A program made the translations under genes and the position numbers. 63,647 nt of DNA. It comes from Gnetum montanum. Lineage: Eukaryota > Plantae > Gnetophyta. Of this stretch, positions 8,026 through 63,313 are shown piece after piece. How positions within the stretch are numbered: position 1 is the first letter of the stretch; each line of letters begins with the position of its first letter. The notes under the pieces are model-generated. The model was not told where the DNA came from and ran no database searches. It saw only the letters and a list, made by a program, of their open reading frames with translations. Location of the stretch: NCBI GenBank assembly GCA_015680685.1, contig MNCI01001745.1, positions 1,137,330-1,200,976 of the forward strand, in the 5' to 3' direction.

Positions 8026-8099
8026 AGTTTGAAACCTACAAAAAATACACGTATGAAAGAACAAGAGGATTAGAAGAGGTTTTCCTACAATAAACTAGA

Positions 8100-14604: not shown

Positions 14605-15317
14605 TGATGTTTTTAGTAGTTTTTTTATTAGTGTCTAATGTATTAGTTTCAATATTTTAGTAGTCTTTTGTTAATGCAGGTGTTTTATTTATTTTTTACC
14701 AAATTTAAATCATTCTTTATGGATTCTTGGTATTTTAATTATGTCTCAACTACATCTCTATTTAATTAATGATGTATATATAACTTAGAAAGTTCAATAT
14801 ACTAGCTACTACTTAATGTTTATTCACTAAAAATATTGCGTATGATTTATATGATTTTTCTTATATGTAATAGAATTTGATTTTTCTATTTTGCACTAGT
14901 GTACATGATTGATTGATAGATGTGAAGCTTTGAAACTTGAGACTATTAACATCTTTAGGAACTTATCTTCTCAATTTGGAAAACTTGTTGAAAATGTGAG
15001 GTATTAAAATCTCTAATAATTTGCATTTGTTGTCCGATCCCGATCCCCCGGTTTGTTATTCCCCGGATTAAGTTACTAAGAAGGTTTGCACCTTGCATTA
15101 CTTGCTAAGGTATTGGAACACAATTTTTGTTGGCTTCTAAGTTACTGAGAGATTTTACATTGGCAATCAAGTTTGGGAATCAAGTTAAGATCCTCTTAGT
15201 GTACAAGTTATTCTAGTAGAAACCTTTTGAATGCTTCATGTCATTGGTATTAGGATTATTATAGAATGATATTATAGTAAGAAAAAAACCAAGATGAAAA
15301 AACTAGACCTAAGGCAA

Positions 15318-16553
15318 TAAAACACCACCAAGAAATATTATGTTGCAATTTGTAACCTCACCATTAAACCTAATGCTAGAATTATAGTAAAATGTGAAGA
15401 TTGTAATCCATGAGACACAATTTCACATACATTAACTTTTAGGATTAAAAAAATTCCTCATAAGTTGTCACAACCTCCATCCCTAAGTGAAAAATGCCAT
15501 ACCATGTCTATATTTGGGGTTGGTAAGGTTAAAAATCCCTTTTAGAATACCAAATTTGGTAATTTTTATGCATTTTTGTGGGACTATAGCCTCAACTATG
15601 CTAAAACAACCTACCCCTAGCATTGGTGGTGTTGGAGTTTCATTTTCCTAGCAATTGTATTCCACAACGCCAATGTAGGAGCTATTGGCTTTCCATTTTT
15701 TTCATGAAGCTAATGTTGGACTAGTTGGGGTTTTCACTTTTCCAACTATGGCCAACATAATTACCATATTTTCCAATGTAGCTGCAACAAAGCTAGTGTA
15801 GTACCAAAATTTCATTTACTAATTTTAGTATCTAATGTGATTTTGATGACTTTGGATGTATCAAAACTTACCATTAATGGAAACTATGCTAGAGTTGAAA
15901 GCCTACCGCACCTACACATGATTTTAATCTATCAGAAATCATGGAAGAGAATATGCAACAACAAATTGAACACCATCAACCTATTTAAATCAAATTCCAA
16001 TACTTTGAGAGGACTTTTAAAAAATTGGCAATTGGCTAAGCATTGGAGAATCTCAATTGCCTATTCGAAAAAATTCAAGCATTTTTTTCACTATTTTTTA
16101 CAACCAATGTAGTAGATCCACATCTAAGAATTAGCAAGGTGTTTCAAAAGTTGGAGCTTGGAAGCACTTGAATTTTGCAACTCACTATAGAACATAACCT
16201 ATTAGTTTCTTCAGACTTTAGGTAGCACTCAGGCAACTCCTTGTGCATCTTGGCACATACTTGTATATCTTGGAACTCTTCTCTTGCAAATTTTTTATTA
16301 TTTTAATAAAAATCATTAGTTCATTTATTTTTTCATATTTATTTCAAATTAAACTTTTCAGCTTTCTCTTATATTAGATCTACATTTTTCATTTAATTCG
16401 CTTGCACCATTTACAAGTCCTAAGTCGTTGGATGATCAACAAGACTATCCAAGGTGCTTTGGATCCTATTTTTAGAGGTCCTTGGGATCTAAAGTTAAAC
16501 TATTTCATCTAGAATTTTTGGTTTTATAAAGACTAAATTTCTAAAGTGTTATA
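15318..16553 (+). repeat. 5' LTR of element A
   Basis: Starts T(A)AAACACCAC (family consensus TGAAACACCAC) and ends GTGTTATA before the PBS. First ~290 bp align with 31157-31447. Confidence 0.7.
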
Positions 16554-16558
16554 GTTTT

Positions 16559-16573
16559 TGGCACTACAAGGAG
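16559..16573 (+). promoter_or_regulatory. Primer-binding site of element A (Tat/Retand-type TGGCGCTAGAAGGAG, decayed)
   Basis: TGGCACTACAAGGAG. The equivalent in element B is TGGTGCTAGAAAGAG at 44662. Confidence 0.6.
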
Positions 16574-17393
16574 AGCCTATGACCAAACATTCAGCTAAAA
16601 AAATATTTCAAAACATTTCCCAAAGGCCTTTTCCAAAACCTTTTTTTAAAACATTTTTCAAAAAAATTTTGAACCTTTTTCCAAATACCAATTCAATTAC
16701 ATTTCAAATTGAAAAACCTACAAACGTTTAACTTCAAAAACCAACGTTGGTGTTCAATCCCCCACAACCAACACCTAGTGTAGTTGTTATGGGTGAGTTG
16801 GGTTTTTACATCATTTTCACAGAAATTGTTGGACTTTTTAAGGCTAGCATAGTCAACACTTGAAATAGCAATTTTTACCCACCAAAACCTATGTTCAAGA
16901 TATCTTGAAAGTGAGCATAGATCCATAAAAAAATCCAAATATAGCTACTATGAAAATTTTGTAAGGAAGCTAGGCTAGACATTTCTAGGACTCTAGCGTA
17001 GTCCTAGGAAAATTGAAAATTTTCATATTTAATTTCTTAAAACAAACATACCTCCTTCAAGAGAAAAAAATCCTAGCTTGATTTTGGTAAGTGAAAACCA
17101 ACATAGTTTTGGATATACTGTGATCTATTGCACACTCCCTAGCATAGATCTTGCAAGTGAAACCAACATAGTTCTGGATATAAAATTTAAAATCATAACA
17201 TTATTTTCCTAAGTGTAGTATATACCATTTACACTTTAGTAGTAGTTTCAACCATTTTTTTCATTTATAACCAACTAAACCATTGGGAAATCCCACTTAT
17301 TGAAATGTTTACTAAAAATAGTAAAAGGACAAAACAAAATCTTTGATAATGCCTTTTAGCAAGTCCACAATTGTTTCTATTGACATGACAAAC

Positions 17394-20300
17394 ATGGCAT
17401 CTAGTCAAGATGGGGTAAGGATCTATGATCCAAAAGACCTTACTGTGGTTGAGCATAGACAATCACTTAGACAAAGAGGGCGAATCCCAAACTTTGTTTT
17501 ACTCACCGAAGAACATAATAACTATATCTTTGCTAAGATCCAAGCTAGATTACTCATTCCACATGCAAAGGCCAAAGCCAACCATAAGTATGAGTTGATT
17601 CACTATAATGGAAAAGTGTACATACCCTATCCCTATGAAAAAATACCATTGAAAAATGCTAATGTACACATACCCTCTTAATTAATTGAGAGAGACATAT
17701 CGAGTGAGAAGCCTAGTTCAGAGGACCTACATGAAAAACATGATGAATTTGAGGCAAAGCCTAAATTAGAAATTTTCATAGGAAGCCTATTCTAGCAAGC
17801 AGCCCATCAAACTACCACATCCACTTTGGCCTTGCCTATCTATTCCATGGGACAAAGATCTCAACCATCGTCTCCTATATATCCCAAAATGTTTGGGACT
17901 ACACTAGTTATACCAACACACTAGGCATAACCTGTGTCTCAAATAGGCTCCTATTTTTTCCATGCCTTTTTCCATGTAGCCTCAATCTATACAACCCTCT
18001 CACTGATGGTTCTCACCATTTCTTATCCTTTCTCTTTAACAGTGGAACCCACAACAGGACCACATGTAAACCAAGGAACATATACACTATTTGTTCTCTT
18101 TGTGCCTCAAGTACCAGCACAAACATCCTTTTCATTGTTTAGCACATCCATGACCACTATAACCTAGCCTCTTCCTTCTACACCTCAACCCATTATGAGG
18201 CCACAAGACTCTCAATTAACACCTCAATCATTCATACAAACATCACAATCCATGGGGATGCTCCAAGGATTAGATCAAACATTCCAGATGATTCAAGACT
18301 TGATAGAAGAATTACAGAAGCCTAAAGCCTCCACAACTCAAATGATAAAAATCATGTATTTTTATTAGGATGACTCAATTAGTCCTACCATCCCATAGAT
18401 AACTCTTTCATCAAGCATCCCTATACCTTAATTTACCAAGTACAATGGCAAAGGTGACCCTAATGCACACCTTATCACATTCCACTCTGAGTATTTATTG
18501 ATGCAAGCCTAGCTGCATACCATAAGGAAGGTTTTCCCTATGTCCCTTACTAGGAAAGCTTTGGATTGCTACCATGCACTACCAAGAGATCCATATCCTT
18601 ACTAGAATACTTAATTTCATAGTTCATTAAAAATTTCAAGTACAACTTGAAACCTAACATGATTCTTGACTAACTAATGAAGATTAAACAAGAACCCCTT
18701 AAGCTCATACAATTATTTTTACAATGATGGAATGCTCTTCTAAATCAGATTCTAGATCCAATAGCCAAGACTCACCTTCTTACCATATTGAAGAAGGTGG
18801 TTAATGATTTTATTAAGTCAAAACTTTACTATTTGGACCCATAGTCACTTAGCCAAGCATTTTCTCAAATTAAGAACATAGAGGATGTAGCTAAGGCCAG
18901 TCATGACCTAGCCTATGGGGCCTATAAAAATCAACACACAAGAAAGAATAATAATAAAATCAAGTAAGAGCATAAAACTATGGCTGTTGTAACAAAAGAA
19001 TCAAAACAAGTAGAGAGGTAGGGGTCACTGCTTTGCAACACATCTTTAGACTCATCACAACCATCTACTTCATATGCCCTAAATCAACCAAGGTCAAACT
19101 TTTGATGCAAGGATAGATATAAGTGCACAAGATTTCCTGTGAAGCCTTATGAGCTTAAAGAAAACTATACACAACGTAAGAAACTATTTGAGGAAGCTCA
19201 TAAGAGGTACAATCATCATTGCAACATAGTTAGAGATTCAAAAATGGCTACCAAAGATGATCAGAAGCTACCAAAGTACTTTATATTGGATAGGTTTTGC
19301 CATTATGATCAAATGGCCTGCCATGACACCTATTTTATCCTAGAATTAAAGGATGACCTCTAGAAGATGATAGACTATGAAGAGTTGGTGTTGAATGAGC
19401 CTAACTCTCTAAGAGCCAACAACAACTCTTACATTGTAGCCTTATTCATAGAAACCAAATAGTCTAATCTTCCTAGGGAATCATTTGTCATTAAGATGCC
19501 ACTAAGATCCCAAAACACAAAGCCTAGAGAGCCATTTGCCATTAGGATACCACCTCCTGTAACCCCTAAGAAGCCTTTCATCATACATGTCCCTTCTTTA
19601 GTGGCATCAACTTCACAACCAAGACCACAAGTTACCAATCCCCTAAAGCCTAGAAAACCATTTGTTATCTGGGTCCATTGATCTTGAATAAGTAATCCTA
19701 TAACAACCTATGATCAAAGCTCACCTATAGTGGCCCACAACTCTAAGGATAGCAAGAAACCATCACCCCAATGGTGACAAAAATTACTTGTTACCAAACC
19801 AACAACTAAGCCCACCAAAGGTGGCAAAAAATGAAAGGCTTCAAAGTTAACTAACTTACCTAGGTCTACACTAGAATTTACTACATCCATAGAAAAGGGG
19901 TACAAGGAACATATATCAAAACCTAGACAATAAACTCTAGGAAGAATGGAGGAAGTTAAAACCAATAAGGCCAAAAATTTTCACACCAAGGAAAAGAATT
20001 TCTACACAACAATGAAACAAGCCAGATGGTCATAAATAAAACAACACATGACCAAACTTGTATGACTTGATCATAACCTCTCGTGCACATAAGGATGCAC
20101 TAGCTCAAGTGTTAACCTCTATTCCTATGAGTAGAGACATGCTTGTCACTATAGAATCAATCAAATTTGTCATTGAGCAAGATTTTCTTAGGGAAAATGG
20201 GCATCAAACCATGCTCAACTTTCATGATAGTGAAGTTAATATTGACTCTCAAAATGGAGAGGTGCTATCCACTCCTCTGCCCATTACTATATGTGTTGGT

Positions 20301-20904
20301 GGGTACAAGGTTCATCAAGTTCATGTGGATGATGGGGCAATGACTAATGTGGTAGCATTTTCCATTGTTGGCAATCTAGGCTTAACCAAGAATATCTAAG
20401 CAACCACTACCTCAACACTCAAGTCATTTAATGGCTCACAAGTAGTGGTGTGAAGTTCAATCTCCTTGAACATCATGGTTGATGAGCAATTTCCTACATT
20501 TACCAACTTTGTAATGGTTGAGGAGACACATGGCTTCAACTTGATCTTATCAAGGCCATGATTAGCTAAGCTCAATGTAGTCTCATCCCCTATACATCAA
20601 GAGAGTCACTTACCCTATGAGGAAGGGGAAATTATCATTCATGGAGATAACATGTTACTAACTTCAATTAACTATGTCAGCATCGATTGAGGTTCAGAGG
20701 TGAAGTTTTAAAAGAAAACTCCTGATACATAGGTTGGAGCTACCAACAACAAAGATAACAATCATGCTAGCAATATCAACTCTATGACATGGGGTGATCA
20801 ACAAAAATGCATGTAGCTCACCATGTTGAACAAGTGAGATGGTGTACACAAGATCATGACAATGGAACTCATTGATCTATTGAAGATCAAGCAAAAATTT
20901 CATG
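17394..20904 (+). pseudogene. gag: gag-protease of element A (multiple stops and frameshifts)
   Basis: MASSQDGVRIYDPK...; FTKYNGKGDPNAHLITF...VFPMSLTRKALD (gag core); FCHYDQMACHDT..LKDDL (CHHC knuckle); VHQVHVDDGAMTNVV and LILSRP (aspartic protease). Confidence 0.85.
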
Positions 20905-21039
20905 GTAAATGTCTTATTCATTCTTTGGTTAATGATTGGTTGTTTACTTTTGCAACATTATGTCATATTTTGATATTGGCTCTAGGCTTATACGCTCTTT
21001 TGAGAGCATTCCAGACCTACTAGGAAAGCATGGATTGTG

Positions 21040-21190
21040 GCCCGATAAGGCCTAAAATTGGAAACCTAATGATCCTCCATGGCCTAAAATTGATAACCTA
21101 ATGGTCCTTCATGGCCTAAAATTGGCAAATAAAATGGCCTACCAAGGCCTTAAACTGGTGACCTACCATGGCCTAAAAGTGGTAATGTTT
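21040..21190 (+). repeat. ~32-bp tandem repeat (GGCCTAAAATTGG core, 5 units)
   Basis: Cores near 21050, 21081, 21113, 21146 and 21169. The same motif recurs at ~26120, ~26560 and ~26765. Confidence 0.8.
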
Positions 21191-23373
21191 GCATAACCTG
21201 TTTATAGTTGTTATTCCTTAGTCTACCTTTTGTTGGCCTAGTTAACTTACATTTTCACTTTACCGAATATTGCCATATCATCACATGATTCAACTAATTT
21301 AGCCTAGCATATCCTTATGACATGAACAAAACATAAAATAGAGAAGGCATGTAAAACTAAACATAGTCATGATTACATAGTGTGACAAAGGTTCAAACAC
21401 CATATAAAATGAACATAAGTCCAATAGCCATAGCTACACTATGTAGCAATAAAATAAAAAACAATAATAAACCATCTCTCAATAAAATCATCAAAAAAAA
21501 TAAACTAGCCAAAGATATAATCAATAGTTGGTGCTAGGGTGTAATTGGGGATGGTGAAGGATCACTTTTGTCTTGACCACTAGGGATCACTGCCATCATC
21601 TATATCCTGCAATGATTAAAATAAAACATGTTAATAACCAATAGAGGCTTTAACATTGTAATAAAAATTCCAAAAACAAACCAAAACCCTAAAATTAGGC
21701 ATATACAGTGTAGTCCTAAGCCTATAAAAAATTTTAACAAAAATCCAAAACCATAACCACATCCAACAAAAATTACACAAAAAACTTGGAATAGTAGAAA
21801 ATGGCCATAGTGAATCATTGATAAAAAATATGATTTTTTTTTAATATATCAAAAATAATGTCAAACCCTTCATAACACCTCCAAGGATCCCTAAGAACCT
21901 AGTACATTGGTTAAAAATGTTTTGCAAAGTGTCAACATTGCTCATATTCATAGGGTAAAGCCATAAAAGCCAAGAAGTTCACCATACATAGATCTACGAA
22001 AAAAATCACCAAAAATTAACTATGTAACCAACATTGATGATTCCATAGTTTTTGAAGTCTTAAACCATAAAATAAAAATCCAAAACTTGAAAACCCAAAA
22101 ATTCCTAGCCGTTTTTTGCAGAAAAAAGATACCAAAATAACATGAAAAATAGCCATAAACTGAAAATCCATTACACACTAGATTATGGAAACATTTGTAG
22201 AAAATCAACCATAGGTCAAAATTTAGTGGTTTAAAAACTATTTCAACCAATAAACATAGTACTACAACCCTATTGTCATAAAAATTATAAAATGCTAACC
22301 ATTTGCATACAAAAATAATACAAAAGTGGTGTTTCTTTTTTGCTGAAAACTACAGAAAAAACACCTAGGAAAGACTAAAATAAATTTTTAATTCAATATA
22401 CATCAATCCCAAAACAAGAGAAATATTGAAAACCCATAAACATAGCCTAGATCTAACATTTGGATTTTACAAAATTCAAATATACCTAATACACAAACCC
22501 ACACAACCAAAAATCCCTAGGAATCCAATGAAACTTTGCATGAAATGGATAAGAGTTGTGTACTTGGGGATCATGGTAGATGAACCTTCAATGATCAAGT
22601 ATCATCAAAGGTGGAAGAGGCCTTATGTACAAGCATCAACCTCCTGTAAGGCTAGATTCTTGTTGATTGCAACCCTCCTCTATGACATCTTGAACAAGTA
22701 GCACTAAAACTAGTAAAACCTTTAGACTTCTGGGGCCTCTTGCGATAATTGTGCCTACTCCTTGGGATAGAAAGGCAAGACTACATTGGGAATAAGTGTG
22801 GTGGAGGAAATAGTAGGATCAAAACTCTGGTGCTATGTGTTGAAGCGTGGGAGTGATGAAAGAATTATGATTTGTGTAAACTTGTAGTTTGGAAAATACT
22901 TCCAAACTTATGCACCTACCTGCAAAACCTTGGTTTTCTCAAACTGTTCATCCAAGTTTCACTAAACTCAATGATCATAATTATAAATTAAAACTACACT
23001 TGGTAGGTGGAAAATCAATTCATACAAAAACTCAAACTTAAGGTGGACCCCACTGGATGCCTCTACAATAAGCCAATGGAAATCCTAAAAAACTTAGGGT
23101 TTCAGTGTCTCCATGGTGACTACACTAGGGTTTAATCATCTACAAGCCTTGAAGTTCATTCTAAACCCCAAATTCTATCAAAACCCATTTCACAACTATC
23201 CATACATGTCATGAGACCTTATGCCTAAAATGGAAAACTAGGTGTTAACATTGATGGAAACTAAACACTAAGGAAGGCTAAAAAACATATCAAAACCTAC
23301 CATTTTGGTAACTATGCTAACTAGAATTTTGACTACATTACCTAGTGATGAGACGCAACTTGCACTAGGCCAC

Positions 23374-23420
23374 GATATCGCGTATGCGATATCACGTCCC
23401 GCCGCCATATCTATAAATAA
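23374..23420 (+). promoter_or_regulatory. LTR U3 promoter: palindrome GATATCGC-GTAT-GCGATATC and TATA box (TATAAATA, 23412-23419)
   Basis: Read directly from the sequence. A pyrimidine-rich initiator-like tract lies ~25-30 nt downstream. Confidence 0.65.
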
Positions 23421-23530
23421 GAGGCAGCACTCCCTTCATTTCCCAATCCTGGCTAGTGTAGCGAAGCTCTGGTAGATTGATCACTCCAGAGTTAGAATTT
23501 TTCCCCATGTGCCCGCAGTAGGAGTCCTAG

Positions 23531-24079
23531 AGTGAACGGCTCTTTATTCGAGCAGCTTGTAACCTGAACCCAAGTTGTGTACGGCAATAAAGACGAACTT
23601 GTTTGGATAAACCTTGCAGCACGTGGTTTCATTTATTGCTTTATTTCCTGCTTTCCTAGTGCGTTCAAGTACGACTTGATTATGAGCTTCTACGGACGTG
23701 TACGGCTAGTCAAGGAATCGGCTGCTTGACGCAATGCATGAGTACGACTCAATTACGAGCATTGGATGCTTGGTAACCCAGTAGCGTATTCCAGGATTCT
23801 GCGCTTGGTAACTCCCGGGTCTAATGTGTACGGCTAGTTGAGGAATCGGCTGCTCATTGCTAGGCTAGATCGTGTGATAAGTACGACTTAGTTACGAGCA
23901 CCCATGGGTGTGTACGGCTGGCTAAGGAATCGGCTGCTTATCACACGTAGGCTAAATAGGTGCCTCAGTACGACCACTTCGAGCACTTGCGTTACGTGTG
24001 GCGATCCCAGTAACGATTAGCGTTTGGTAAGCTGCAGTTGCATAGTTCAGGGTGTGTCCAGTAAGTGGGAACGGATGCT
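23531..24079 (+). ncRNA. Structured-RNA module array in the solo LTR (hairpins 23531-23609, 23660-23733, 23731-23860, 23871-23947, 23967-24079)
   Basis: Stems differ in sequence between units but always pair. Loop strands CGA and GTACGGC/GAATCGGC/GAACGGC are conserved. Compensatory changes are seen relative to copy 1. Confidence 0.75.
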
Positions 24080-27000
24080 AACGCTAGTTAATTTAGACTT
24101 AGATTTTAGTTAGAGTTAGCTTAGTTTCTCAACCCTTTCCCCTGGTAGCATAGAAGATAAGCCGAAAATACCCAAAAAATCACATACCTCAGACTTGCTT
24201 AACCATACACCGTGACACTTACAAGCAAGCCTGGGAAGACAACGAACGATTAACCCCAAGTGTTTCTTGTGGTGTTAAGGTATTTAGTCTGCGGAGTTCG
24301 ACCGGATCGCGCGTGTACGCTCATATTCGTATGGTTGAGTGTAGGGGTATCTCGCCACTCATCACCTAGCATAGTTCCAAGTTTAATTGTGTACTCTACC
24401 ATTAAACAAACTCCCAACTAACTTTGAAATCATCACACCACACCCCAAATCCTAACCACAGCTTCTAGTAGCTTCGAAATTCCACAAAACTGGTCAAAGA
24501 GCACCAAAGATCATTTCTCTTACATGGGATACATTGTGGCAGGCTTCACCTATTATGGCCTACATATTCCCAACATATTTGAGTAAGAAATGAACGCCAA
24601 AATATGGAAATAGCCTCCAAAATGATGCACCTTGAACCCCAAAGTCACTGGTAAGCCTGAAACCCAAGGAAATCAAGCAAAAGTAGAAACTTTCCTACTC
24701 CCACCTTCAAACTATGCTAGTGATGGCCATGAATACACTTACCTATGTATTCCTCGTGTATTTGGAAGAAGATATATCAATAAAAGTGAAAAATAATCTC
24801 TAACTTAACATATCTTAACCTTAAAAATCCTTCAAAAACTTTGATGACCTTGCATTGGCAAATTGTAGGACAACAGAAGGTAAAAGCTCATTTCCACCTT
24901 GGGTGTACATTGAGGAAGCTTGGGACTATGCTAGCCAACATAGCCTAAGTGTAGTTCCATTTTAAAGGCATGAAAATAGGTCACCAACATGCCAAATTAG
25001 CTTTTGGAAGCATCATCTTAGTTCTAAACCTTGCCAAAGACTTTAGAGACCAATAAATCATAAAAACCAAGTTAAAAATCAATAGAACTTAGCCTACACC
25101 CCTCAACTATGCTAGGATTACATTGGTCACTATAGTCTAAGGGTGTTGGATTAGTCTAGAACTCAAATTATCATTAAAGCTAATCATCTTGGACTTGAAA
25201 CCCTACTTCTAAGCACTAGTGATCGAAATACTTGAAAACCTAGTCGATTAACCATGGAATTTCACCAAAATTAAAGATTCATCTTGTGACTATGCTAGAG
25301 GAGACCTAGACTATGCTAGCCAATGTAGTCCCAATGTAGTCATGAACATAGGATGATTTCACTAATAATTTGACCCTCCAAGTAGTCCAAAGCTTGACTA
25401 GGAAACCCAAAACATTGTTTGGCCTTACCCGTACAATTTCACCTTATTATGATCATGGGAATGCTAGATTCCATTCATCTACATGAGGTAGGCCTAGAAC
25501 TATTCTAGCCAATGTACTCCCAACATAGTCTCTACCTCAAAATGTTTGGCCAAAAATTTATTTCTTGAAGCCTAGATCCTTGAAATCCTAAAGTGAGTTA
25601 TGGTGGCCAACATAGTTATGAGGTGTGCATGCCCAAATGCCATTTACAATGGCCTATTTTAACTTCCAAATGTTTAACCCTTCTCTTCTAGGACCGTGTG
25701 CTACCCTAGGAAGCTACCAAAGCACTAGTTTTCACTCTAAAACCCCATAAACCCATTTCTCACATGCATCAACATTAGGACTACAATAGTCAATATAGTC
25801 CCAGTGTAGTCATAAGTTTTGGCACCATCTTCACCTTCTATAGGGTGAAAACAAGGTCAAAATGCACTAATCCTCCACCCTAGTCCATTATGTAAGCCAT
25901 ACAGACCATTAAGAACTCATAACTAGCCACAAAAAACCTAGAAAATCACCTATGGATGTTGACTATGTTAGGGCCTATTTTGACTATGCTAGTCAATGTA
26001 GTCCCTAGTTGGGGCCAATGTAATCATAATAAAAGATGTCATTTATACCTTCAAACAACCTTATAATGACCACAACAAATTCCCAAAATCTTCTATTAGC
26101 CCCATATCCTTCCACTATGGCCTACTAAGGCCTAAAACTAGCAAAATCTAACCATAATTGACCAATATTGATAATGTTTTACCATATGTTTCCTGTCTGA
26201 ATTGGTATGTCCTTGTTCCATCAAATGTTTCTATCATTGACATAATTTGTACCTTGGCCTATTTTAGCATTAACTAATGTCATTGAACATTAAAAGTACC
26301 TTATTTAATTTTACCCAACTTCATTCCATGAATATTAGCTTGAATATGATCTTCTTTAACCACAATTTGGTCATCATTTCACCTCATTTGGTTTTTATTT
26401 GGCTTTGTATTAACCTTATTTACCATATCATCTCACTTGTGGCCTTAATTACCCTATTTGACCATTGTTGTATGTCATTTGATGGGGTTTGACCATCCCT
26501 TGACCATTTTAGGCATCATTTGACCATCATATGATTTGCTAAGGACTTAAACTAGCAACATGGCCTACTAAGGCCTAAAACTGGTAATGTGTAACCATAG
26601 TTGATCATGTTTAACCTTATACTATCTTAATTTACCCCTAGTGATCACTACTAACCATGTTTCAACCTGGTTTGGATTTAATTTAATTTTTCTACTTAAC
26701 TTCACTTTATTATCAAAGTATTTTACATTTTTACATGTTTAAGCTTATACTATCTTAATTTAAGCCTAAAACTGGTAAAGTGTAATCATAGTTGATCATG
26801 TTTAAGCTTATACTATCTTAATTTACCCCTAGTGATCACTGCCACTTGATGTGCTTATGTTGTCATGCAAGAATAAGCTAGGAGGATAAGAAAGCAAATT
26901 CAACTAGTATTAAAGCCTAAATAACCCCCTCTCATGATTTTGTTAAACTAAGTTAACCTTACATGCCTAAATCTTAAGCCTTAAAGCCATTCTACCATAC

Positions 27001-27288
27001 AGCCTCAATGCCCTAGAGTAGCCTAATGACTGTTGACCTCAAAGCTAGAGACATCATGGAGGATCTATTAGTTGAAATTTCCATGTAAATCACAATGATA
27101 AGGAGAAAATGCATAGGACCAAGTACCTCACCACAAATTAAGCTTTCTTATGACATCATCAATCCCTTGTAATACAACTTTAATTCCATAATATAGCCTT
27201 GATTACATCTAATACTTACATGTTTGCTTATAGTGTTGTTTATCATTGTTAACAAGTTGCAACTAATGATTGATGTTGATGAATCCAA

Positions 27289-30115: not shown

Positions 30116-31156
30116 GATCTATGACCAGTGAGCCTCCATGCTTTATTTCTCTCAAACTCTCTATTTGATGTAATCAATAAACTACAAGTTTTGTAAATCC
30201 AATATGCATCACACAAATCTCTCTATGTTCTAATGATGGTAATCTTTGATGGCCTAGTTTTTTGGTTCTCTCATATAGCCCTATTCATTGTACTATGATA
30301 ACATGTTTTCTTTATCTTATTTTCATGTTCTCTTAGAGTTGTGCTTGTAGGATGAAGCTTGAGTCATCACAAAGGTTCAACTCATTACAGTAACAAGTTA
30401 CCATGTGATCTTGATGTGTACGATTTGATTAGCTTGTCCTAATGTGTCAAGAGTGCTTATTTTACATAACTCTTATTTGTCTTCCTTGAGCCACCATCCC
30501 ATAGCCTACTTATAACCTTCTGTATCCTAAACAAGAATGATGACCTATGTTTGACATTCATACATTATGGCCATGTGACATATTTTTCTTCATGCTCCAC
30601 CATCAAGTCCATTAGATGCAACACATCTCATTCAACAAAAAAACCAAATTAAATATGGCCTTGGGAATGAAACCTAATGAAGGTTTCACCTCCCAAATAA
30701 AGGAAAACTGGGAAAGAAAATTGCTAAGAATCTAAAAGACTAATGAACACCAAAAGGAAAACTAATGGCTCTAAACAATCAAGGGGATGAGCCTAATGGT
30801 TAATGAAACCTTGGAGTGAGGTGTTGATTCCTCAAAAACATTACCAAGTAACCAACACTTTGAAGCATGAAGCGTGAAGACCACATTGACTAGTCATTAT
30901 ATCATTACCATGATGTCAACATTGCAAATTCATTGTTAACCCATGTGACCACTCCTTCATGACCAAATATAACCTTTAACCTATATCATCTCATCATAAT
31001 ATTTAATCCCATCATCACAAGCACTCTTTGGCATGTTTTAACATTACTAAATCAAGCACAGAGAGGAAACATTGATGATAAGCCTATGGTGGTATTTTAT
31101 ATTATTTGTGGATGTCTCTCGGGTCAATCCTCCAAACATCAACAAAGAGGCACCAA

Positions 31157-31447
31157 TGAAACACTACCAAGAAATCTCATTTTATATTTTGTAACCTTAC
31201 CATTAAACCCAAGACTAGAATTTTATTGAAAAATGTGAATATTGTAATCCATGAGATGAAATTTCACATTCTTTAACTTTTGGGACTGAAAAAATGCCTC
31301 ATAAGTTCTCATAGCCTAACTTCCCAAGTTAAAAGGGTCATACCATGTTTATATCTTGGCTTGGGGTGGTTAAAAATTGGCATTTTCATGGGTTTTTATG
31401 TGGGCATAACTCAACTATGTTGTAGCCACCTACCCCCAACGTTGGAT
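31157..31447 (+). repeat. Truncated 3' LTR of element A, preceded by PPT (CAACAAAGAGGCACCA)
   Basis: Starts TGAAACACTACC. The upstream ~70 bp match the PPT region of element D (reverse complement of 55218-55290). Confidence 0.75.
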
Positions 31448-53200: not shown

Positions 53201-53752
53201 TTTCTTTATTCATAATCATACACATAGGACAATTTAAAATACATCAGGTGCATGTTGATGATGGAGCTACAACCAACATCATCTTATGCACCATCATTAA
53301 ATTCTTGGGCTTAACTAAGTAAGTACATCCTGCAACCACCAAAACTCTTAAGTCCTTTAATGGATCAAGAGTTACTATCAAGGGGTCCATCTCCTAAAAA
53401 TTTTGTAGCTAGATAAAAATTCCCTACAATCACCAACTTCTTAGTATTGGAAGAGACACCAGGATTCAAATTGATCCTGGGAAGGCCTTGGTTGGCTTAG
53501 TTACAAGTTGTGTCCTCACCCATTTATTAAGAAATTCATGTTCCTTACAAGGAAGGTCAAATCATCATTCATGATAATAATGTAATTTCCCTAGCTATCA
53601 ATCATGTAGACATAGAATAGTGGTCCAAAGTGGAGCTTCAAGAAGGAGCTCCTAGCCATGAAGAGAAAACACTAAAGATAGTCAACTCTGAAAACAATAA
53701 GCAATGGGATACATTATGGGATGAACTCACTTTTAACATCATAAGCAAAGGG
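47246..53752 (+). mobile_element. Tat/Ogre-type element C: 5' LTR 47246-48791, gag-protease ~50202-53750, interrupted by element D
   Basis: Starts TGAAATACCAC inside the gag of B. LTR end TTTTCAATCACAACA. Protease HQVHVDDGATTNI...LILGRPWL. Confidence 0.85.
49742..49880. other. Assembly gap (N run) after a C-rich tract
   Basis: Read directly from the sequence. Confidence 0.99.
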
Positions 53753-55476
53753 TATTACAATCAAAAACCTTTGTTGCTGGAATGAAAAACAAAGGATCCT
53801 TAGTGTAAGCAGTTCCCCAACCTCAAATGCCCAGGGCCTTTGCAATAAAAATGGGATTCATGGCACCCTAGCTAGTTTTGCAAATTAAGCAAGGACTTAT
53901 GAGATGCAAAATGTGGAAATATTCATAAATCCAAATAATGCACAAATAATAAATTTCCTTTTGAACACAAAACTCAAAACATAAAAACTTTATTAAGAAA
54001 GAATAAAGAAAAAGTTAGAGAAATGTGTACAAATGGTGCCTGGATGAGCAAAAAAGGGGGGTTTCACTTGAGCAAGAGCTCAAATCTCATTGAATCCAAT
54101 GTGATGAGCTCCACGATTCAGCTCCTAAAGCACTCTTAATGTTATTGAAATTTCCTTTACCACTGCAACCTTGGATCTATCAATTGGGTCACTCAAGCCT
54201 ACAATGCTTCCATGCTAGGATTCAAGAGAATGCAAGTATGGAAACTTGTAAGAGCTCTTAAGTGCTTGAAAATGTCCCAAGTGTGGAATTTTGTGTATCC
54301 AAATTACATATTACTTATATGGCCAAAAATTATTGAACTTTGTCAAAAACATAGAACCATGAGAAAAATTGTTACAGCCACTAAATGGTGTTTAAGATTC
54401 ACTTTTATAGGATCTTTGGACAATCAATGGGGCTAAAAATTGGCTATGACTTGGTTGTATATTGGCTATAAAATTTCTACAAGTTGGCTACAAATTTAGG
54501 TGAGATGGGTGCCCAAATTTTGGGGGTTACTATACATAGTAAGTGCTCCTTCCATTGTCATTCCATTTACTATAAATAGTAACCAGGGCATGCCTTTCAT
54601 GATGGAGATGAATCTTCCACCCTGAGCTCTTCACCATGCTTGTTGAAGTGGTTGGTCAACATTGAAGTTCATGAATTCATAAATTTTTCTTCTTGTGGCA
54701 TCCACATTGGGGGATTGAATTTTCCATGCTTGGGAAAAGTTTCTACATGAACTTTCACATTGGGGGGAAAGTTTTCAAGTTGGGGGAGGGGGGAAGAGAA
54801 CTTTCACATTGGGGAAAAATTTTCCAAGATAAGGGGAAAAGTTTCCAAGCTAGGGGAAAGTCTCCAAGTTATGCATTTGATCTCCACATTGAACAAGGGA
54901 AAATCTTCCAAACCCTCCATCCTTCCATGCTAGGGGTAGGTGAGATCTACCCTCCTACAAGTGTTTCTAGCATAGAAAAATGCATATCCCCCATAAAACC
55001 CATCAAATATAGATAATAGATGACTTTTTTTTCACTTGGGGAATGAGGCTTTAATCACTTATGAGGCATTTTTCAATCCCAAAAGTATAACATATGTGAA
55101 ATTACCCATTGTGGGATATAATTTTCACTTTTACAATGAGATATTTCCTTAGGTTTCATGCGGTGAAAGCTACATGATGAAGACTAGTTATAACATGCAA
55201 AATTTTGTGGTGTTTCTATGGCCCCTCTTTGTTGATGCCTAGAGGATTGTCCCAAGAGGCACTAACAAAGAATACAAAACATCACTACATATTATAATGT
55301 TACAATGCATATAGGCCACATGATAATTAGGCTATCCAAGTCATCAATGTTGCTAGTTTAAGGCAATGGTGGGCCATGGTACCAAGTTAAGGTCTTAACA
55401 ACCCATGTTGCAAGTTTAAGGTCATAGAGGACCATTGAAAGAAGGCTTGCTTGTTGACAATCTATCAGCTACATGT

Positions 55477-58400
55477 AGTATGAATTTAGATAGCAATGAT
55501 TGACCAAATTGGCTAGCTCATTCCCATCCATATTAGCTATTTTGAATGCTCCATTCCTGTAGGCTCTAGTGATAAGAAAGGACCCTTCCCAGTTGGCTAA
55601 GAATTTGTTTGTATGCTCACTAGGTTGTCCTCCTTGATCTTGCTTATGCTCAAGTTATGGTGATATTCTTTCTTTTTCCTCTCTTGATAATTCTTGATGT
55701 GAGCAACGACTTGCATATGCCACTCCTCCACCAAATCTAAGGCTACCATCTATAACTCCTTCTTCTGCTCGTTGTTGATGAAGTCGATCAAGGCTACTTA
55801 GAGTGATGGCACCTACAATTCAAGAGGTAAAACAACTTCAAAATCATAAACAAGGCTATAAGGGATCATGTGGGTTGCCATGCAATAGGTTTTTTTATAT
55901 ACCCATAGTGCATGGACAAGCCACTCATGCCACTTCTACTTACTATTGTTGAGCATCTTCTTAAGCAAGTTGATGATGGCCTTGTTGCTTGCTTTTTCTT
56001 GTCTATTGGCTTGAGGGTAGTAAGAGGAGATAGAATGCTTAATGCCTAGGTCATGACAAAAATCCTTGGTTTCTTAGCTACTAAATTAAGGTTTTTTGTC
56101 TATAACTATGATCTTGGGTATGCTCAAACAAGCTATAATGTTATATAGGATAAATTTGCAAACTTCCTTAGATGTGATCTTCCTTAGGGGAATAGCCTCA
56201 ACCCACTTGGTAGAGTATTTGGTTGCAGTGATGATGAAGTTATGTCCTACAGAAGACTGAGGCATTATGGGTTCAATGATATCCAACCCCCATTGTTCAA
56301 ATGACCATGTTATCTAGGTTGTATGTAACTTAGTTGGTAATACATGTATTAGGTTGCCATATCATTGGCATGTGTCACATCACTTAACCTTTTATAGGAA
56401 GTCATTTTCTATATGGGGCCAATAGTAGCTTAACCATGTAATATTAGTGGCCATGGCTCTAGGTCCTATATTCCCTTCACAAACTCTCTCGTGAACCTCC
56501 TCTAGGACTGTTCTAGCTTTGGCTTTACTAAAGCACTTTAGGAGTATGCCATCATAGGATTTTTGACATAATGTGTTATCACCTACAATGACATACTACT
56601 TCAATTACTTGCATATGGCATCCTTTTGAGAAGTAGTAGGCATTATGAGGATTCATCATGTATACAGTAAAATTTGAGATCATCATACCACTCCTTCGGA
56701 GGAGAACTATGGACGATGTCCATAAAGGTATCCTTAGTATTTTATGTGATGGAAGTAGCATAGTCCATGGTTAATGTGCACAACTTACTAAACACATGAA
56801 ATCATACTAAGGGCTAATGTTGAAATTTCATCAACTATGGCATTTTTGTTTTGAGGTATGTGTTGGATATCAATATCTATGAATTTTTATAACTAGTTTC
56901 CTAGGTCATAGTAAGGTTGTAAATGCTTAGATTTGCATGCATAGGCTTTGGTTACTTGGTTGAACATAAGTTGTGAATTTCCTTTGATGGCTATGTATCT
57001 AATTCCTAGGTCATGAGCTACCATTATCCCTCTAATCAAACCCTCATATTCTGCTATGTTGTTGGTACATGAAAACCCAAAACAATAGGTTAAGGGTTGG
57101 ATCTCACCAAATGAAAATGTTATGATGGAAACAACACTAGCCCCATGGATAATTGGAGCTCTGTCAAAGTTTATGATTACCTCGTAATCCTTAGGCACTT
57201 GGATAACTATGTTAATGTGTTCATTAGGGAACTCAATGTCTATGGCTCATTGGTCATCAACAAGTAAAACTATGAGTTGTACAACTATAGCTTGACCTTT
57301 TGTTGAGGACTGAGTACATAATGAAGGTTGAATTCTGTGGTTATGGCTTTCCATTAAGCTATATGGCTACTTTTGTAGATGTTGATCCTTATGGCCTTGA
57401 GTATGTTGTCCTTACGAATTACATTGACTTGGCTTCTAAAGAGGTAGTGCCTCCATTTCTTCAAACAGAAGACTAGTGCTAGACAATACATCTCCACCTT
57501 AGTGTATCAAGTATTATAGGAAACTAACACATGGTTAAGGTAGTATACAAGCATTTTTGTCCTGTCATCACATTTTTGATAGAATAGAAAGGTAATGGAT
57601 GTACCAAAGATGGCAAGAAAAATGTAAAATAGTTTACCCTCTTTTGGAGGATAGACTATTAGTAGTTGTGCCAACTCTTGCTCAAGGTTTTCAAAGGCCT
57701 CTTGGCATTGAGTAATTTACTCATAATGAACTCCTTTCTTTAGCAAGTGTTGCATAGGCTGTAACTTATCCATAAGCCTAGTGATAAACTTAAGAATAAA
57801 CTATAATATACTTGTAATCCCTGAAGCTCTTTAAGGTTGGTAGGTATCTCCAATTTGGATATGGCCTTAACCTTATCAGGATCTAAATGTATCCCTACTT
57901 TAGAGATTACAAATCCAAGCATCTTACCAGTCTTGACATCAAAGACACACTTTTTAGGATTGAGCCTAAGCTCATATTTGAGGCATTACTTAAACATGAG
58001 ATCTAGGTCATTAGCTATCTTAGACTTCAGAACTATTTCATCTACATAATCATTAAGCAAACCTAACATGTAATCACTAAAGATATAGGCCATGGATCTT
58101 TGGTATATTACTCTAACATTCTTAAGGCCAAAGGACATCTTGGTATAACAAAAGTTATCCCATGGGTCATAAAATTCATGTTGAGCTGGTGCTCTACGTT
58201 AATCCTAATTTGGTTATATCCTAAGAATCCATCCATAAAGGACAACAAGGCATGTTTGGCTATAGTATTGATAAGTTGATCAATACTAAGCAAAGGGATG
58301 TCATCCTTGATGGTTGCTTTATTTAGGTCTTGAAAATTAATGCAAATATGGATACTCCCATTTTTCTTAGGAACTACCACTATGTTGGATACCCACTTTG

Positions 58401-58917
58401 CGTAATCAATAGCCCTAATGAAACCTGCTTGGTAGAGCTTTGAGATTTCATTGTGAACTTCCAAGGCCAAATTAGCTCGAATCTTTCACACTTTTTGCTT
58501 AACTAGTCTAATGGTAGGATCCAATATGATGTTGTGTTGGACTAGACATGGATCTAGGCCCAACATATCTTCATATGACTAGGAAAATGCCTTAAGGTTA
58601 GTTGTAAGATTTTGGTGATACCTTGAGCATATTGAGGCTTGAGTGAGGAACTTAGTTTAAGGATTTTCTCCTCACCACTATGTGTTGCGATAAGAACCTC
58701 AACTAGAGAATCTTCAATTATGTCTCTTGCTTCTAAATTAAGGTTTTAACTGGGTTTTTAGGCCATTCTAGAGTTTTCTCTATTGAGGCTATGTGGTCTA
58801 CAAGACTCTTAGGCTCAAGATCTAGGTAATCAGGTCAATACACTATTTAATATCATTGTGAGGTTCATGTAGATACAAATGCAAACTAATTTGCTCCTAG
58901 GTACTCATACTTTAACC
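55477..58917 (-). pseudogene. pol: pol of element D: RT - RNase H - additional RNase H - integrase
   Basis: WVSNIVVVPKKNG..CINFQDLNKA..LSFMDGFLGYNQI; YVDEI; LGFVIS..GIHLDPDKVKAI; WGLDIIEP...STKWVEAIPL; YYPQANRQ; FLANWEGSF. Confidence 0.92.
56893..57198 (-). pseudogene. Additional (archaeal-type) RNase H domain, diagnostic of Tat/Ogre elements
   Basis: INFDRA...CTNNIAEYEGLIRGIMVAHDLGIRYIAIKGNSQLMFNQV, located between the native RH and the integrase. Confidence 0.9.
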
Positions 58918-59699
58918 CTGCATATCAACCAAAAGGATATTAAGTAGCACTTTGTTAAAAGTGAATAAATAATGTTAAAATATCATAAAAAATATGTCAA
59001 TCTAATGTAATCTAGGCCATCCAAGATCATCAATGAGATAAGATCAATTTGAAAAAGTTCAATAGATGTGAACAAAGGTCACATAAAGGTCAAATAAGGG
59101 AAATTATGAGTAATGGTACAAATGATCAATAAATGTCACAATTTTGCTAGTTTAAGTCCTTAGCAGGCCATGGTCAAATGGTGTCAAACAATGGTCAAGA
59201 AAGGTCAAATCTCAAGCCAAATAGAACTATAATAAGACAAGCAATGAACATATAAGGTTGTATAAAGGCTATAGAAGGTTAACCATGTCACTGAGGCAAC
59301 ATAAGTCCAAAATCAAGCCAAAACATTATGTAATAAGGCAAATACTCAAGCAAAATAGGTTATATATGATGAAATTTTTTTAATATAGGAAAAAATGGTT
59401 AGGTTTTTGCTATGTTTAGGCCTTAGTGGGCCATGTTTTAAGGCTACAGGGCTATCAGGTGAGTTCAAGCATTAATCAGGGCTATTTCTAAGCTATTTAG
59501 ATTTAAAAATCCAACATATTAAGGATTCCATGTTGGGCACAATGTGAAAATAAGGGCCCTTGGTATGAAGATTAAGGAAAATAGGTTTTGGCACAATTAG
59601 AGGTCCAAAATTGAGGTCTTGGAACCTTCCCAAGGTAGTGTAGAGTTGTATCCCTCAAAATTGGGCTCTCTAGAGGTTTGTAAGGGAAAAAAGTAGTTT

Positions 59700-62600
59700 C
59701 TAAAGCCTTCCCCCCTTGTTTCCATGCTAGTTAGCATGGAAAATAGGGGGGCTTGACATGGGGAGCCAAAATCCAAGAAAATATAAGGTCAACCATGGTC
59801 AAGCAAGCTAACGGAGTCCAGATCTAGAACTTGTGCATCTCCCAGCTTTGTTTCAAGGAAATTTGAAGTCATTTTGAGTGTCAATAAATGTTAAAATGGA
59901 TTATCTCATCCTCCCCTCCCCCCNNNNNNNNNNNNNNNNNNNNNNNNNNNNNNNNNNNNNNNNNNNNNNNNNNNNNNNNNNNNNNNNNNNNNNNNNNNNN
60001 NNNNNNNNNNNNNNNNNNNNNNNNNNNNNNNNNNNNNNNNNNNNNNNNNNNNNNNNNNNNNNNNNNNNNNNNNNNNNNNNNNNNNNNNNNNNNNNNNNNN
60101 NNNNNNNNNNNNNNNNNNNNNNCCCAAAACTTTTTCCTTGCTATCCATAGTATCCTCAAAGTGGGAAAATATGGGAACACTTATTTTATAAATTCAAAGT
60201 GATTTTGGGGCATTTTGACTAGGTTTCTAGGCCCCTGGGGCTACAAAATTTGATTCTATAAGCTTCTGGATACTTTTGGGCATGTTTGAAGGCTATTTAA
60301 GGCTATTTAATGTTCTTCCCATGTTTTCACACTGGGGGAGTTACTCGAACATGGAAGAATTGGAGGAATGGATTTCAAAGATTGAAATGAGCTCAAACAA
60401 GTGAAATCTTGAGGCTATGGCGTCCTAGGCTTCTCTAGTGAAGATCTTTTCTTTTGGGATTGTCATCTTGCCTCCAAAATTGGAAAAACAGCTTCCCCAC
60501 CTTGTTTCCATGTTGTGGAAGTTACTTTAGCATGGAGGAAGTAAGAATATTAGATCTACACCAATCTAGATCACAATCAACCATGCATGTTACTTCCCAA
60601 GGTTGCTAGGATCAAGGGCTATGGATCCATGTTAAAATTTAGCAATTTTGGGCATCCCTAAGTGGCTTTTTGGTTATCCCCCATTTCTTCCATGATGAGG
60701 ATAGAGAGATCAACATGGAAAATAAGGGGAAATGGATTTTTGGCAATCTGGGATCAACTTTATGAAGTTTAAGACCTCCAACAGCTACTACTAGGGTTCT
60801 AGAGTGCATGAAATGTTATTTGATGTCATTTTGAGATGTTCAGGAGTCCCAAATAGGTCTCCCCTTGAGTTGCCATGCTGGGGAAGCTACCCTTAATGTG
60901 GAAAAATGGATCCCCAATGTGGAAGAATCATGAATCTTAGATCTAGATCAAAATTTCCCTCAATCAACATTGCATGTTAGCACTTGGGGCTATTGTGGTC
61001 AAGGACTAGGGTTTGATGTTAAATTTTGGTAATTTTGAGTATTTCTAAGTGTTTTTTGGACTTCCCCCTTCTTTCCACTCTAGGGATGTAGACTGCATTA
61101 TGGAAAACAAGGGAGAATACATTTTTTTTCCTTCTGACATCAATTTATTGATGTTTGAAAGCTCGAAATGATGTTGGAAGGGTCCTAGAGCACATACAAG
61201 TGTGGTTAATGTTATTCTAAGGTAGTTATGGAATCCAAATGGGTTTCTCCTTTAATGTACACACTAAGAAGGATGGAGGAAGGAATTCCCAGCATAAAGA
61301 AACCATAAAAATTAGATCTAACCTAGTTTTAACTTCAATCAACCATGCATGTCAGCCTTTGGGGCTACCAAGGTTGAGGACTAGGGTTTGGAGTTAAAAC
61401 TAGTCATTATTTTAAAGGTTTTTAAAGTGGTTGTTAGAATCCCCCCTGCACCCCCTCCCCCCTCCCCCCTCCCCCCTCATTTTCATGTTTTGTCTTCCAT
61501 GTTCAATGTGGAAAATTAGGGGGATAAGCTTTTTGAATCTTTATAGTCATTTTTGATCATGCATGTAGGCTTCTAAGGTTGCTAGAGACGATGGTCAATG
61601 CCTGGTGTCAAATTTTGGTTGTCTTGAAGGTTGATGACTAGTTTTTTGGCTTTGCCTCTTTTTCCACATTGGGGACTCTATACTCAACATGGAAAATTGC
61701 GGGAAAATCTTTTTGATGTTTTATCATCACTTTTAGTCATGCATGTGCATTCTTGAGGTTGTTGGTGTTGACTGCTAGCATCTAATATCAAAATTTGGCT
61801 GTCTCAAGGGTCATAAGGTAATTTTTGAACTTTTCCAACTTTCTCCATGGTAGGATTTCCATGCTCAATTTGGAAAAATGTAGTGAAATATTTTTGACCA
61901 TTTTTGACTACTTTCAATCATGCATGTATTTTTCTAAGGTCATTGGTGTCAACTGGTGTTACTTGATGTCAAAATTTGGTTGTTTCATGTTTGATAAGGC
62001 ATTATTTAGACTTCCCATACATTTCCCATACTAGGGCTTCCATGCTTAGTGTGGAAAAATGAAAAAACAAATTTTGGCTATTTTGACTACTTTTAGTCAT
62101 TCATGCAGTTTTCTAAGGTCACCGGTGCTAACTACTATTACTTGATGTCAAATTTTGGTTGTTTTAAGTTTGATAAGATATTTTTTAAACTTCCCCCTAT
62201 TTTTCCACATTAGAGATTCCATGATTAGTTTGGAAAAATGGGTGGAAAGCTTTTGGACTTGTGATCACTTTTGGGCATGCATGCAAACTTTTGAGATTGT
62301 TGGCATCAACTATTAACATCTGATGTAAAAATCTGATTGTTCTAAGGGTTGCTAGGCATTTTTTGGACATCCCCTCATTTTTCCACAGTGGGGCTTTCAT
62401 TTTAAATATGGAAAAGTAGGGGGGAAATAATTTTTAATCATTTTTTATTAATCTAGCTATGCATGAGTTCTCACAGGGTTCCTGGCATTGGCCATCAATG
62501 CCTAAGGGCAAGATTTGGTTGTTTTGTGGGATGTGAGGGGATTTTAGTCTTATCTTCTTTTCTCCACTTTGGGGGTCAAATGATCTACGTGGAAAGGTTC

Positions 62601-63190
62601 CCTTTTTGAAAAAAATTAGATCTAGGCCCAATTGATAGTTGATCGATCATGCATGTTAACCTCTGGGGTTGCTGATGTTGATTATCAATGTTGGGTGTCA
62701 AGATTTGGCAGTTTGTAGGCTTCTAAGTGTCTCATGAAATCTTCCCCATTTATTCGATGCTAGGAATGATGGTCCTAGCATGGATGAGAATGGTTTGATA
62801 GTTTTGTATCATATCTAACCCATTTTTGAGCTTCTGGAAGCTCCAAAGAGTTATAATAGGGTTTAGGGTTCACCAAGCATCAAGAAATGGTCATTAGGTG
62901 ATCAATCTAGGTCCATTTTGGCTTCCCCCATCTATCAATGTTGAGGGTGAGAAGCTCAACATGAAAGAAGCCTCCCCCAACATGGAACGCATCAAATCCT
63001 AGATTTTGACTAGTTTTGACTAGGTTTGGTGAGGTTCTGAGGCTTTCAGAGATGATTGGAGGGATTCTAGGTCATGTCGGGTCCACTTTTGAGTCAAATT
63101 TATGATATATGGATGTTGGGAGGCAAGAGTGACTATTAACTCCATTCTTCCATGCTATGCACTTTTTCCCCAACATGGAAATCCATGGTA
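59700..63190. repeat. Satellite-like tandem array (~180-190-bp unit) inside the spacer of element D
   Basis: CATGCATG anchors near 61558, 61738, 61919, 62098, 62276, 62458 and 62648. Spacing is ~380 bp (dimers) at 60582/60969/61344. Each unit has a TTTCCAYRYT...CATGGAAA inverted repeat. Confidence 0.8.
59924..60122. other. Assembly gap (N run) after a C-rich tract
   Basis: Read directly from the sequence. Confidence 0.99.
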
Positions 63191-63313
63191 CTTAACCTTG
63201 CTCATGTTTTACCCAATTTTGGAAACTTAGGGTTGAAAAAGGTAAGTTTGGGTTACCAAAAATAGAAAGATATTTTTAAGTCTAATGAATTTTTAAAATT
63301 ATAAACATGTTTC

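What the first reader, a model, noticed from the sequence alone, without database searches (positions are those of the whole stretch)
20905..26870. Tat/Ogre family with gag-PR and RT-RH-INT split by a giant (~5 kb) spacer or intron
In A, coding stops after the protease at CATG|GTAAAT and resumes ~6 kb later (about 4.9 kb without the solo LTR) with the pre-RT linker. In D, the linker is preceded on the minus strand by TTTTGGTTGATATGCAG| at 58918 and at least 4.4 kb of non-coding DNA (including a gap). That DNA shares blocks with A, such as GCTAAGGACTTAAACTAGCAA and GGCCYACTAAGGCCTAAA. The spacer is therefore a family feature, not a chance insertion. A spliced intron between PR and RT is known in Ogre elements, but to my knowledge is much shorter. 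Inference: splicing-controlled Pol expression, or a separate internal promoter for pol.
Basis: partly seen in the sequence, partly recalled or inferred. Interest (0 to 1): 0.7.

Follow-up and report, generated by a model that had tools for sequence, protein, structure and literature searches.

The report
Plant retrotransposon with giant intron-like spacer
Two decayed copies of an old plant jumping gene carry 4-5 kb of non-coding DNA just ahead of their copying-enzyme region, which is likely an intron about twenty times longer than the one known from Ogre elements, though no spliced RNA was seen and neither copy is complete.

Summary
Copy A has gag-protease, a GT donor-like site at 20905, 5,966 bp of non-coding DNA (4,942 bp without a solo LTR), then about 300 bp of pre-RT linker. 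It then breaks off: A has no RT-RH-INT. Copy D has the acceptor (58918), linker and RT-RH-aRH-INT, but no gag-protease in the window. The title's layout is therefore a composite of two copies. A and D share only the last ~0.6-0.9 kb of the spacer; their middles do not align above background. Genomic contigs show on the order of 150 copy-equivalents running from the protease tail across the donor. The middle is repeated at lower depth, with no terminus or well-supported short-cut joint among the rows shown. Ogre-type relatives have 201-249 bp introns with similar splice-site words. Five RNA runs gave too few reads to test splicing. Best reading (0.55): an Ogre-like retained intron with conserved ends and an expanded, subfamily-variable interior, in a probably gymnosperm Tat lineage. 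Main rival (0.25): a ~1.2 kb intron inflated by old independent insertions. New variant of a known kind; interest 0.45.

The parts
15317..16580 (+). A 5' LTR (start clear, end approximate)
   Evidence: 80% identical to 31154-31377 over the first 222 bp, ~72% to the C and D LTRs
17325..20051 (+). A gag region, decayed
   Evidence: 67-69% DNA identity to B and C gag; C gag has a weak Retrotrans_gag hit, E 0.003, below the Pfam cut-off
20052..20904 (+). A protease (core 20271-20633) and C-terminal tail
   Evidence: profile of Tat-type proteases E 4e-28; 8 stops in 284 codons in this frame against 22 and 25 in the other plus frames
20905..21300 (+). donor-like GT and T-rich 5' block of the spacer with a 24-32 bp repeat array; resembles D's post-integrase 3' UTR
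   Evidence: local score 68 against shuffle maximum 41, 0 of 200; contig depth 876-1372 over 20896-21231
21301..23340 (.). spacer middle, first half: non-coding, A-rich on plus, moderately repeated
   Evidence: no Pfam hit in the 3 minus frames (plus frames not scanned by Pfam), stops in all 6 frames, depth 58-860 with non-self contigs
23346..24364 (+). young solo LTR of an unrelated, very abundant family, with 5-bp target duplication
   Evidence: 91% to window 1-905; depth 1.3-3.1 million; termini and flanks
24370..26008 (.). spacer middle, second half: non-coding
   Evidence: depth 229-840 in run X1; no alignment to D above background
26009..26870 (+). conserved T-rich 3' block of the spacer ending in a branch-point-like word and a decayed acceptor
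   Evidence: aligns to D 59542-58918; 50-mer at the acceptor outscored 3653 of 3653 anchored control 50-mers; depth 4486-11144
26871..27180 (+). pre-RT linker coding fragment; A breaks off here
   Evidence: 70% DNA identity to D 58732-58643; a contig of a second organism spans the break with 2 differences
31089..31420 (+). end of a 3' UTR, polypurine tract and start of an LTR, probably A's own 3' end
   Evidence: 77% to D's 3' UTR end; LTR pair alignment
55470..58917 (-). D linker-RT-RH-aRH-INT, decayed
   Evidence: Pfam RT_RNaseH, RVT_3, Integrase_H2C2 and rve (rve below its cut-off) in this order; RT relatives
58918..63307 (-). D spacer (at least 4.39 kb, 199 N): canonical acceptor at 58918, conserved block to 59542, tandem arrays of ~180 and ~390 bp at 60533-62445
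   Evidence: no Pfam hit in the 3 antisense frames of 60123-63306
53746..55216 (-). D 3' LTR, inserted into the protease tail of copy C (end approximate)

Best explanation
A and D are decayed copies of a Tat-clade LTR retrotransposon lineage in which the pol region lies behind 4-5 kb of non-coding DNA that is likely a retained, Ogre-like intron with conserved ends and an expanded, subfamily-variable interior. Shown: the anatomy of each copy, the conserved acceptor block, and family-level continuity across the donor. Inferred: unspliced RNA would give Gag-PR and serve as the packaged genome, so new copies keep the spacer; a spliced fraction would give the full polyprotein and set the Gag:Pol ratio, as reported for Ogre. 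Also inferred: the interior grows by tandem arrays and turns over between subfamilies while the splice-proximal blocks stay. The host is probably a gymnosperm (best named hits Taxus 54% RT, Cryptomeria 43% INT); this is not established.
For: Donor word GTAAAT and acceptor TGCAG|G with a T-rich tract resemble Ogre-type relatives, whose introns were 201-249 bp in 49 of 56 loci with both junctions mapped (of 80 fetched, many redundant); 5 of those 56 show the same CAA at the acceptor as A. Both spacer ends are T-rich, 0.35-0.40. The acceptor 50-mer is homologous in A and D (0 of 3653 controls reach its score). Contig depth is flat at 1190-1370 over the protease tail and across the donor, against 5-14 for single contigs. 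Every bin of the middle is repeated (depth at least 58), non-self contigs lie on it, and one bridges 21234-21489 from the 5' block into the middle. Among the 15 joints shown of 1,195, those skipping the middle have depth at most 40 and sides of at most 28 letters at the repeated motif. Both of 2 copies that keep the acceptor have at least 4.3 kb without protease upstream of it. A's spacer lies between two LTRs that are 80% alike.
Against: No copy holds both halves. No RNA joint was seen; coverage was 12-15 reads per run on 20000-23335, none at least 95% alike, and depth 0-6 outside the solo LTR, so splicing is untested. The A and D middles do not align above background. Middle depth is several- to 100-fold below the coding bins and drops sharply near 26000. 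Splice phase could not be fixed: best frame-pair score 25 against 18-22 for the others. Four relatives that group loosely with the Taxus protein (L003, L005, L064, L068) have protease and RT 0.9-1.3 kb apart with coding-like DNA between, so the split is not universal in this part of the clade. D's tree position is unresolved. Only the top rows of the lay tables were visible.
Confidence: 0.55

Rival explanations
1. The native intron is modest (~1.2 kb, the two T-rich ends), and the middles of A and D are separate old insertions or captured DNA whose termini have decayed.
For: Middles unrelated; much lower depth than the ends, with a jump from 229 to 11144 between adjacent bins near 25930; composition switch to A-rich near 21300; both spacers already hold later insertions; weak DNA joints 21129-26117, 21156-26559 and 21158-26127 exist.
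Against: No termini or target duplication seen; no well-supported joint skipping the middle among the rows shown; a non-self contig bridges the 5' block into the middle; it needs independent multi-kb inserts in the same interval of both copies.
Confidence: 0.25
2. There are two transcription units: the gag-PR message ends in the 3'-UTR-like block after the protease, and pol is read from a separate promoter or separately processed RNA within the spacer.
For: The first ~330 bp of the spacer align to D's post-integrase 3' UTR (68 against shuffle maximum 41); the 3' block has higher depth than the linker or the protease tail.
Against: A conserved acceptor-like end; the ATG beside it is closed by a stop in both copies; no promoter evidence was gathered. 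Not exclusive of splicing.
Confidence: 0.13
3. A is a rearranged or non-autonomous chimera, so the gag-PR-to-linker distance says nothing about the active family.
For: A lost all of RT-RH-aRH-INT and carries other DNA at 27180-31089; D's 5' half is outside the window.
Against: Near-identical contigs span 25454-26141 and 26878-27222, so those joins are not assembly errors; sister copies continue across the donor; D independently has over 4 kb of non-coding DNA before the same acceptor.
Confidence: 0.07

Closest known systems
Ogre (REXdb non-chromovirus|OTA|Tat|Ogre; PMC6317226)
   Same: GAG-PROT separated from RT-RH-aRH-INT by a non-coding region; similar donor and acceptor words; splicing of this region is reported for pea and Medicago (as cited in PMC6317226 and PMC4408406; the primary paper was not held).
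   Different: Ogre's region averages 274 bp and was 201-249 bp in 49 of 56 loci here, against ~4.9 kb in A and at least 4.4 kb in D. REXdb lists Ogre in angiosperms. RT identity to the Ogre-type loci is only 45-50%. No extra ORF was found in the spacer.
Gymnosperm Tat clusters J and K with the retrovirus-like RT-RH-aRH-INT order (PMC10508981, PMC13468544)
   Same: Same domain order; best named relatives are Taxus and Cryptomeria proteins.
   Different: The word 'intron' or 'spacer' does not occur in PMC13468544, and the two parts of three read of PMC10508981 mention none. Four loosely related loci have contiguous protease-RT.
Retand (PMC11963269)
   Same: Tat element with a 2.9-6.6 kb internal region rich in family-specific tandem arrays.
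   Different: Retand's long region lies between pol and the 3' LTR and holds antisense ORFs; here it lies between protease and RT and no ORF was detected.

Membership tests
Tat clade of Ty3/gypsy | additional archaeal-type RNase H (aRH) in pol | tested here: met
   RVT_3 hit E 8e-12 between RT_RNaseH and integrase in D
Ogre (REXdb) | aRH between RH and INT | tested here: met
Ogre (REXdb) | [quoted passage not shown] | tested here: inconclusive
   seen only as a composite of A and D; no single copy holds both halves
Ogre (REXdb) | that region is spliced in part of the transcripts | tested here: inconclusive
   5 RNA runs laid, too few reads, no joint listed
Ogre (REXdb) | RT/INT phylogeny inside the Ogre clade | tested here: inconclusive
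   D sits on a long branch in an unresolved fork with Ogre-type and Taxus-like rows; weak grouping with L005 and L064 at 84/82; no reference set on hand
Ogre (REXdb) | tRNA-Arg primer binding site and 5-bp target duplication | tested here: inconclusive
   LTR ends inspected by eye are too decayed to call
Ogre (REXdb) | extra ORF (often plant mobile domain) | tested here: inconclusive
   no Pfam hit in antisense spacer frames; D's 3' UTR is only ~250 bp; leaders were not scanned; decay could hide one
Tat J/K (gymnosperm, retrovirus-like structure) | RT-RH-aRH-INT order | tested here: met
Tat J/K (gymnosperm, retrovirus-like structure) | RT placement in cluster J or K, gymnosperm host | not testable with these tools
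   no genome held; cluster reference sequences not available; named hits are only suggestive

The most novel reading that the evidence does not exclude
A non-angiosperm Tat lineage replicated to hundreds of copies with a native ~5 kb retained intron between protease and RT, and the 3'-UTR-like block duplicated at its 5' end lets the element choose between ending a gag-PR message inside the intron and splicing on to pol.
Probability: 0.25. Interest if true: 0.68.

Novelty: new variant of a known kind. Interest (0 to 1): 0.45.

Why it matters
If true, intron-controlled pol expression is not confined to angiosperm Ogre elements, and it tolerates an intron about twenty times longer that must still be packaged and reverse-transcribed in an element of roughly 16 kb or more (sum of A's and D's parts). 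It would show that long internal regions of Tat elements can grow between protease and RT rather than after pol as in Retand. It also predicts that domain-based annotation splits such elements into gag-only and pol-only pieces (inference). The question becomes directly testable with long reads, since a stop-free aRH-INT relative 72% identical to D exists in a public assembly.

Tried and rejected
No genome held, so copy-by-copy spacing could not be measured. No RNA holder listed. RNA runs X15, X16, X17, X18 and X20 (5 of the 6 raw-read RNA runs offered; about 2 or 26 in 100 of each run read) gave no junction and too little depth to count as evidence. The motif scan of metagenome contigs found 0 matches; viral contigs 0 relatives; Rfam 0 on 20500-27500; Pfam found nothing in 9 antisense spacer translations. 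Protease searches found only distant relatives, about 22-35% identical; 20 of 149 also carry RT, but none is family-close, and one search found none. Three loci with protease 8 kb from RT (L063, L066, L071) were dropped: they are one locus at 98-99% identity, with their own donor next to the acceptor region, so the distant protease belongs to another element. In 27 of 80 loci no protease was found upstream, many because the contig ends. Three collinear-looking weak A-D blocks were rejected as chosen after the fact once controls were run. An exon-like antisense stretch in A's middle had no Pfam or read support. Earlier-findings look-ups returned nothing. Seven literature searches listed no paper on a multi-kb protease-RT intron; subscription papers, including the primary Ogre papers, are not held, and supplements of the two Tat phylogeny papers were not read.
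Full report
Setting. The window is a stack of decayed plant retrotransposons. Self-comparison shows four related LTR elements (A, B, C on plus, D on minus) with LTRs 70-82% alike, and a young unrelated solo LTR. No genome is held. The best named relatives are a Taxus protein (RT, 54%) and a Cryptomeria protein (INT, 43%), so a gymnosperm host is a guess, not a result.

What A contains. An LTR from about 15317, gag, and a protease (profile E 4e-28 at 20271-20633) lead to CATG|GTAAAT with GT at 20905. Non-coding DNA runs to 26870, 5,966 bp in all, with stops in all six frames (46-81 per ~820 codons, against 8 per 284 in the protease frame). A solo LTR at 23346-24364 with a 5-bp duplication accounts for 1,024 bp. 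After 26870 about 300 bp match D's pre-RT linker, then homology stops. No pol-like coding is found up to 31089, where a 3' UTR end, polypurine tract and an LTR start 80% like A's 5' LTR appear. A has therefore lost RT-RH-aRH-INT.

What D contains. Linker, RT, RH, aRH and INT in that order, a short 3' UTR, and an LTR inserted in C's protease tail, which removes C's donor from view. Upstream of a canonical TGCAG|G at 58918 lie 4,390 bp without a protease hit, including tandem arrays and a 199-N gap, up to a young element at 63308. The layout in the title is thus assembled from two copies.

How much A and D share. They align from A 26009 / D 59542 through the acceptor into the linker. The 50 letters at the acceptor outscore all 3,653 anchored control 50-mers, which shows homology but not selection. 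A reads CAA where D reads CAG; 5 of 56 Ogre-type loci show the same decay. Upstream, three weak collinear blocks did not survive a control: best p 0.005-0.04 in 62 tests. The quoted motif also occurs just after A's donor, and that block aligns over ~170 bp with D's post-integrase 3' UTR (68 against shuffle maximum 41). So the DNA following gag-PR resembles the DNA following pol.

Copy evidence from sequencing runs. Contigs laid at 80% likeness give summed depth, which the tool warns is not a copy number; I use it only as a relative measure against 5-14 for single contigs. Depth in run X1 was mostly 2,000-11,500 over gag and protease, 1,190-1,370 over the tail and across the donor, 876-959 to 21231, 58-860 in the middle, 4,486-11,144 in the 3' block and 2,046 in the linker. 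Run X5, from a second organism, gave the same profile. Non-self contigs with 14-18% other letters lie on the middle, and one bridges 21234-21489. Joints that skip the middle are weak (depth at most 40, sides at most 28 letters, at the repeated motif) among the 15 shown of 1,195. Near-identical contigs span 25454-26141 and 26878-27222, so those joins are real DNA. Against the best reading, depth jumps about 50-fold between adjacent bins where A-D homology begins, and linkage of the middle to the 3' block in sister copies was not tested. Five RNA runs gave too few reads to show or exclude a junction.

Baseline from relatives. Of 80 metagenome loci (many redundant), 50 have protease 880-1,875 bp before RT, 27 show no protease upstream, and 3 were dropped as one nested locus. 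The A/D composite gives about 5.6 kb without the solo LTR. Ogre-type loci have 201-249 bp introns in 49 of 56 mapped, with donors beginning GTAA and acceptors ending CAG|G. Four loci near the Taxus protein have contiguous protease-RT, so the split is not general in this part of the clade. Trees leave D unresolved, so shared origin with Ogre's intron versus independent gain is open. Splice phase could not be fixed because both linkers have frame changes.

Mechanism. The most likely reading is an Ogre-like retained intron: unspliced RNA would make Gag-PR and be the packaged genome, and a spliced fraction would make the full polyprotein. This step is inferred from Ogre. The interior would be a fast-changing region, as Retand's array-rich region is after pol. 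I give 0.55 to this, 0.25 to a ~1.2 kb intron plus old insertions, 0.13 to two transcription units and 0.07 to a chimera.

Literature seen. PMC6317226: passages and supplementary file 3 in full (Ogre ORFs on average 274 bp apart and spliced in pea and Medicago). PMC4408406, PMC6431247, PMC11963269, PMC12786077: passages. PMC10508981: parts 1-2 of 3; PMC13468544: parts 1-2 of 10 plus passages; they report the RT-RH-aRH-INT order in gymnosperm clusters J and K. The primary Ogre splicing paper was not held. Seven searches listed no report of a multi-kb protease-RT intron. The labels 'branch-point-like', 'polypurine tract' and 'primer-binding-like' are my own reading from recalled consensus, not tool output.

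Verdict. The anatomy is real, the title overstates it, the Ogre-like reading is plausible, and the size is the unproven novelty. New variant of a known kind; interest 0.45.

Noticed in passing
window 23346-24364 and 1-905: Young CpG-rich LTR family with contig depth 1.3-3.1 million against 5-10 for single contigs; transcribed in both RNA runs laid, with 197 poly(A) loose ends behind 23611 in X15 and primer-binding-like loose ends behind 24364.
   Followed up: partly
window 42960-55216: Nest of three related copies: C interrupts B's gag at 47246 in the same orientation, and D sits in C's protease tail in the opposite one; B has a 177-bp tandem duplication at 44273-44618.
   Followed up: partly
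window 37175-38887: LINE-type remnant with RVT_1 and zf-RVT hits.
   Followed up: partly
window 27287-27652 and 29749-30116: An 86% identical 368-bp direct repeat in the DNA that replaces A's pol; possibly the ends of another element.
   Followed up: no
window 21500-22900, minus strand: An exon-like / T-rich / exon-like pattern by eye inside A's spacer, with a few reads on the strand opposite to gag reads in X15 only; not reproduced in X16, X17 or X20 and no Pfam hit.
   Followed up: partly
protein P0164: Stop-free aRH-INT 72% identical to D, fused to a Pol_BBD domain of a different element type; an assembly chimera or a nested junction, but it shows intact relatives exist.
   Followed up: partly
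window 63308-63647: Start of a young CpG-rich element inside D's spacer, on the plus strand.
   Followed up: no
L003 5200-6400, L005 200-1600, L064, L068: Tat relatives near the Taxus protein with contiguous protease-RT; L005 and L068 show a G-patch-like stretch by eye.
   Followed up: partly
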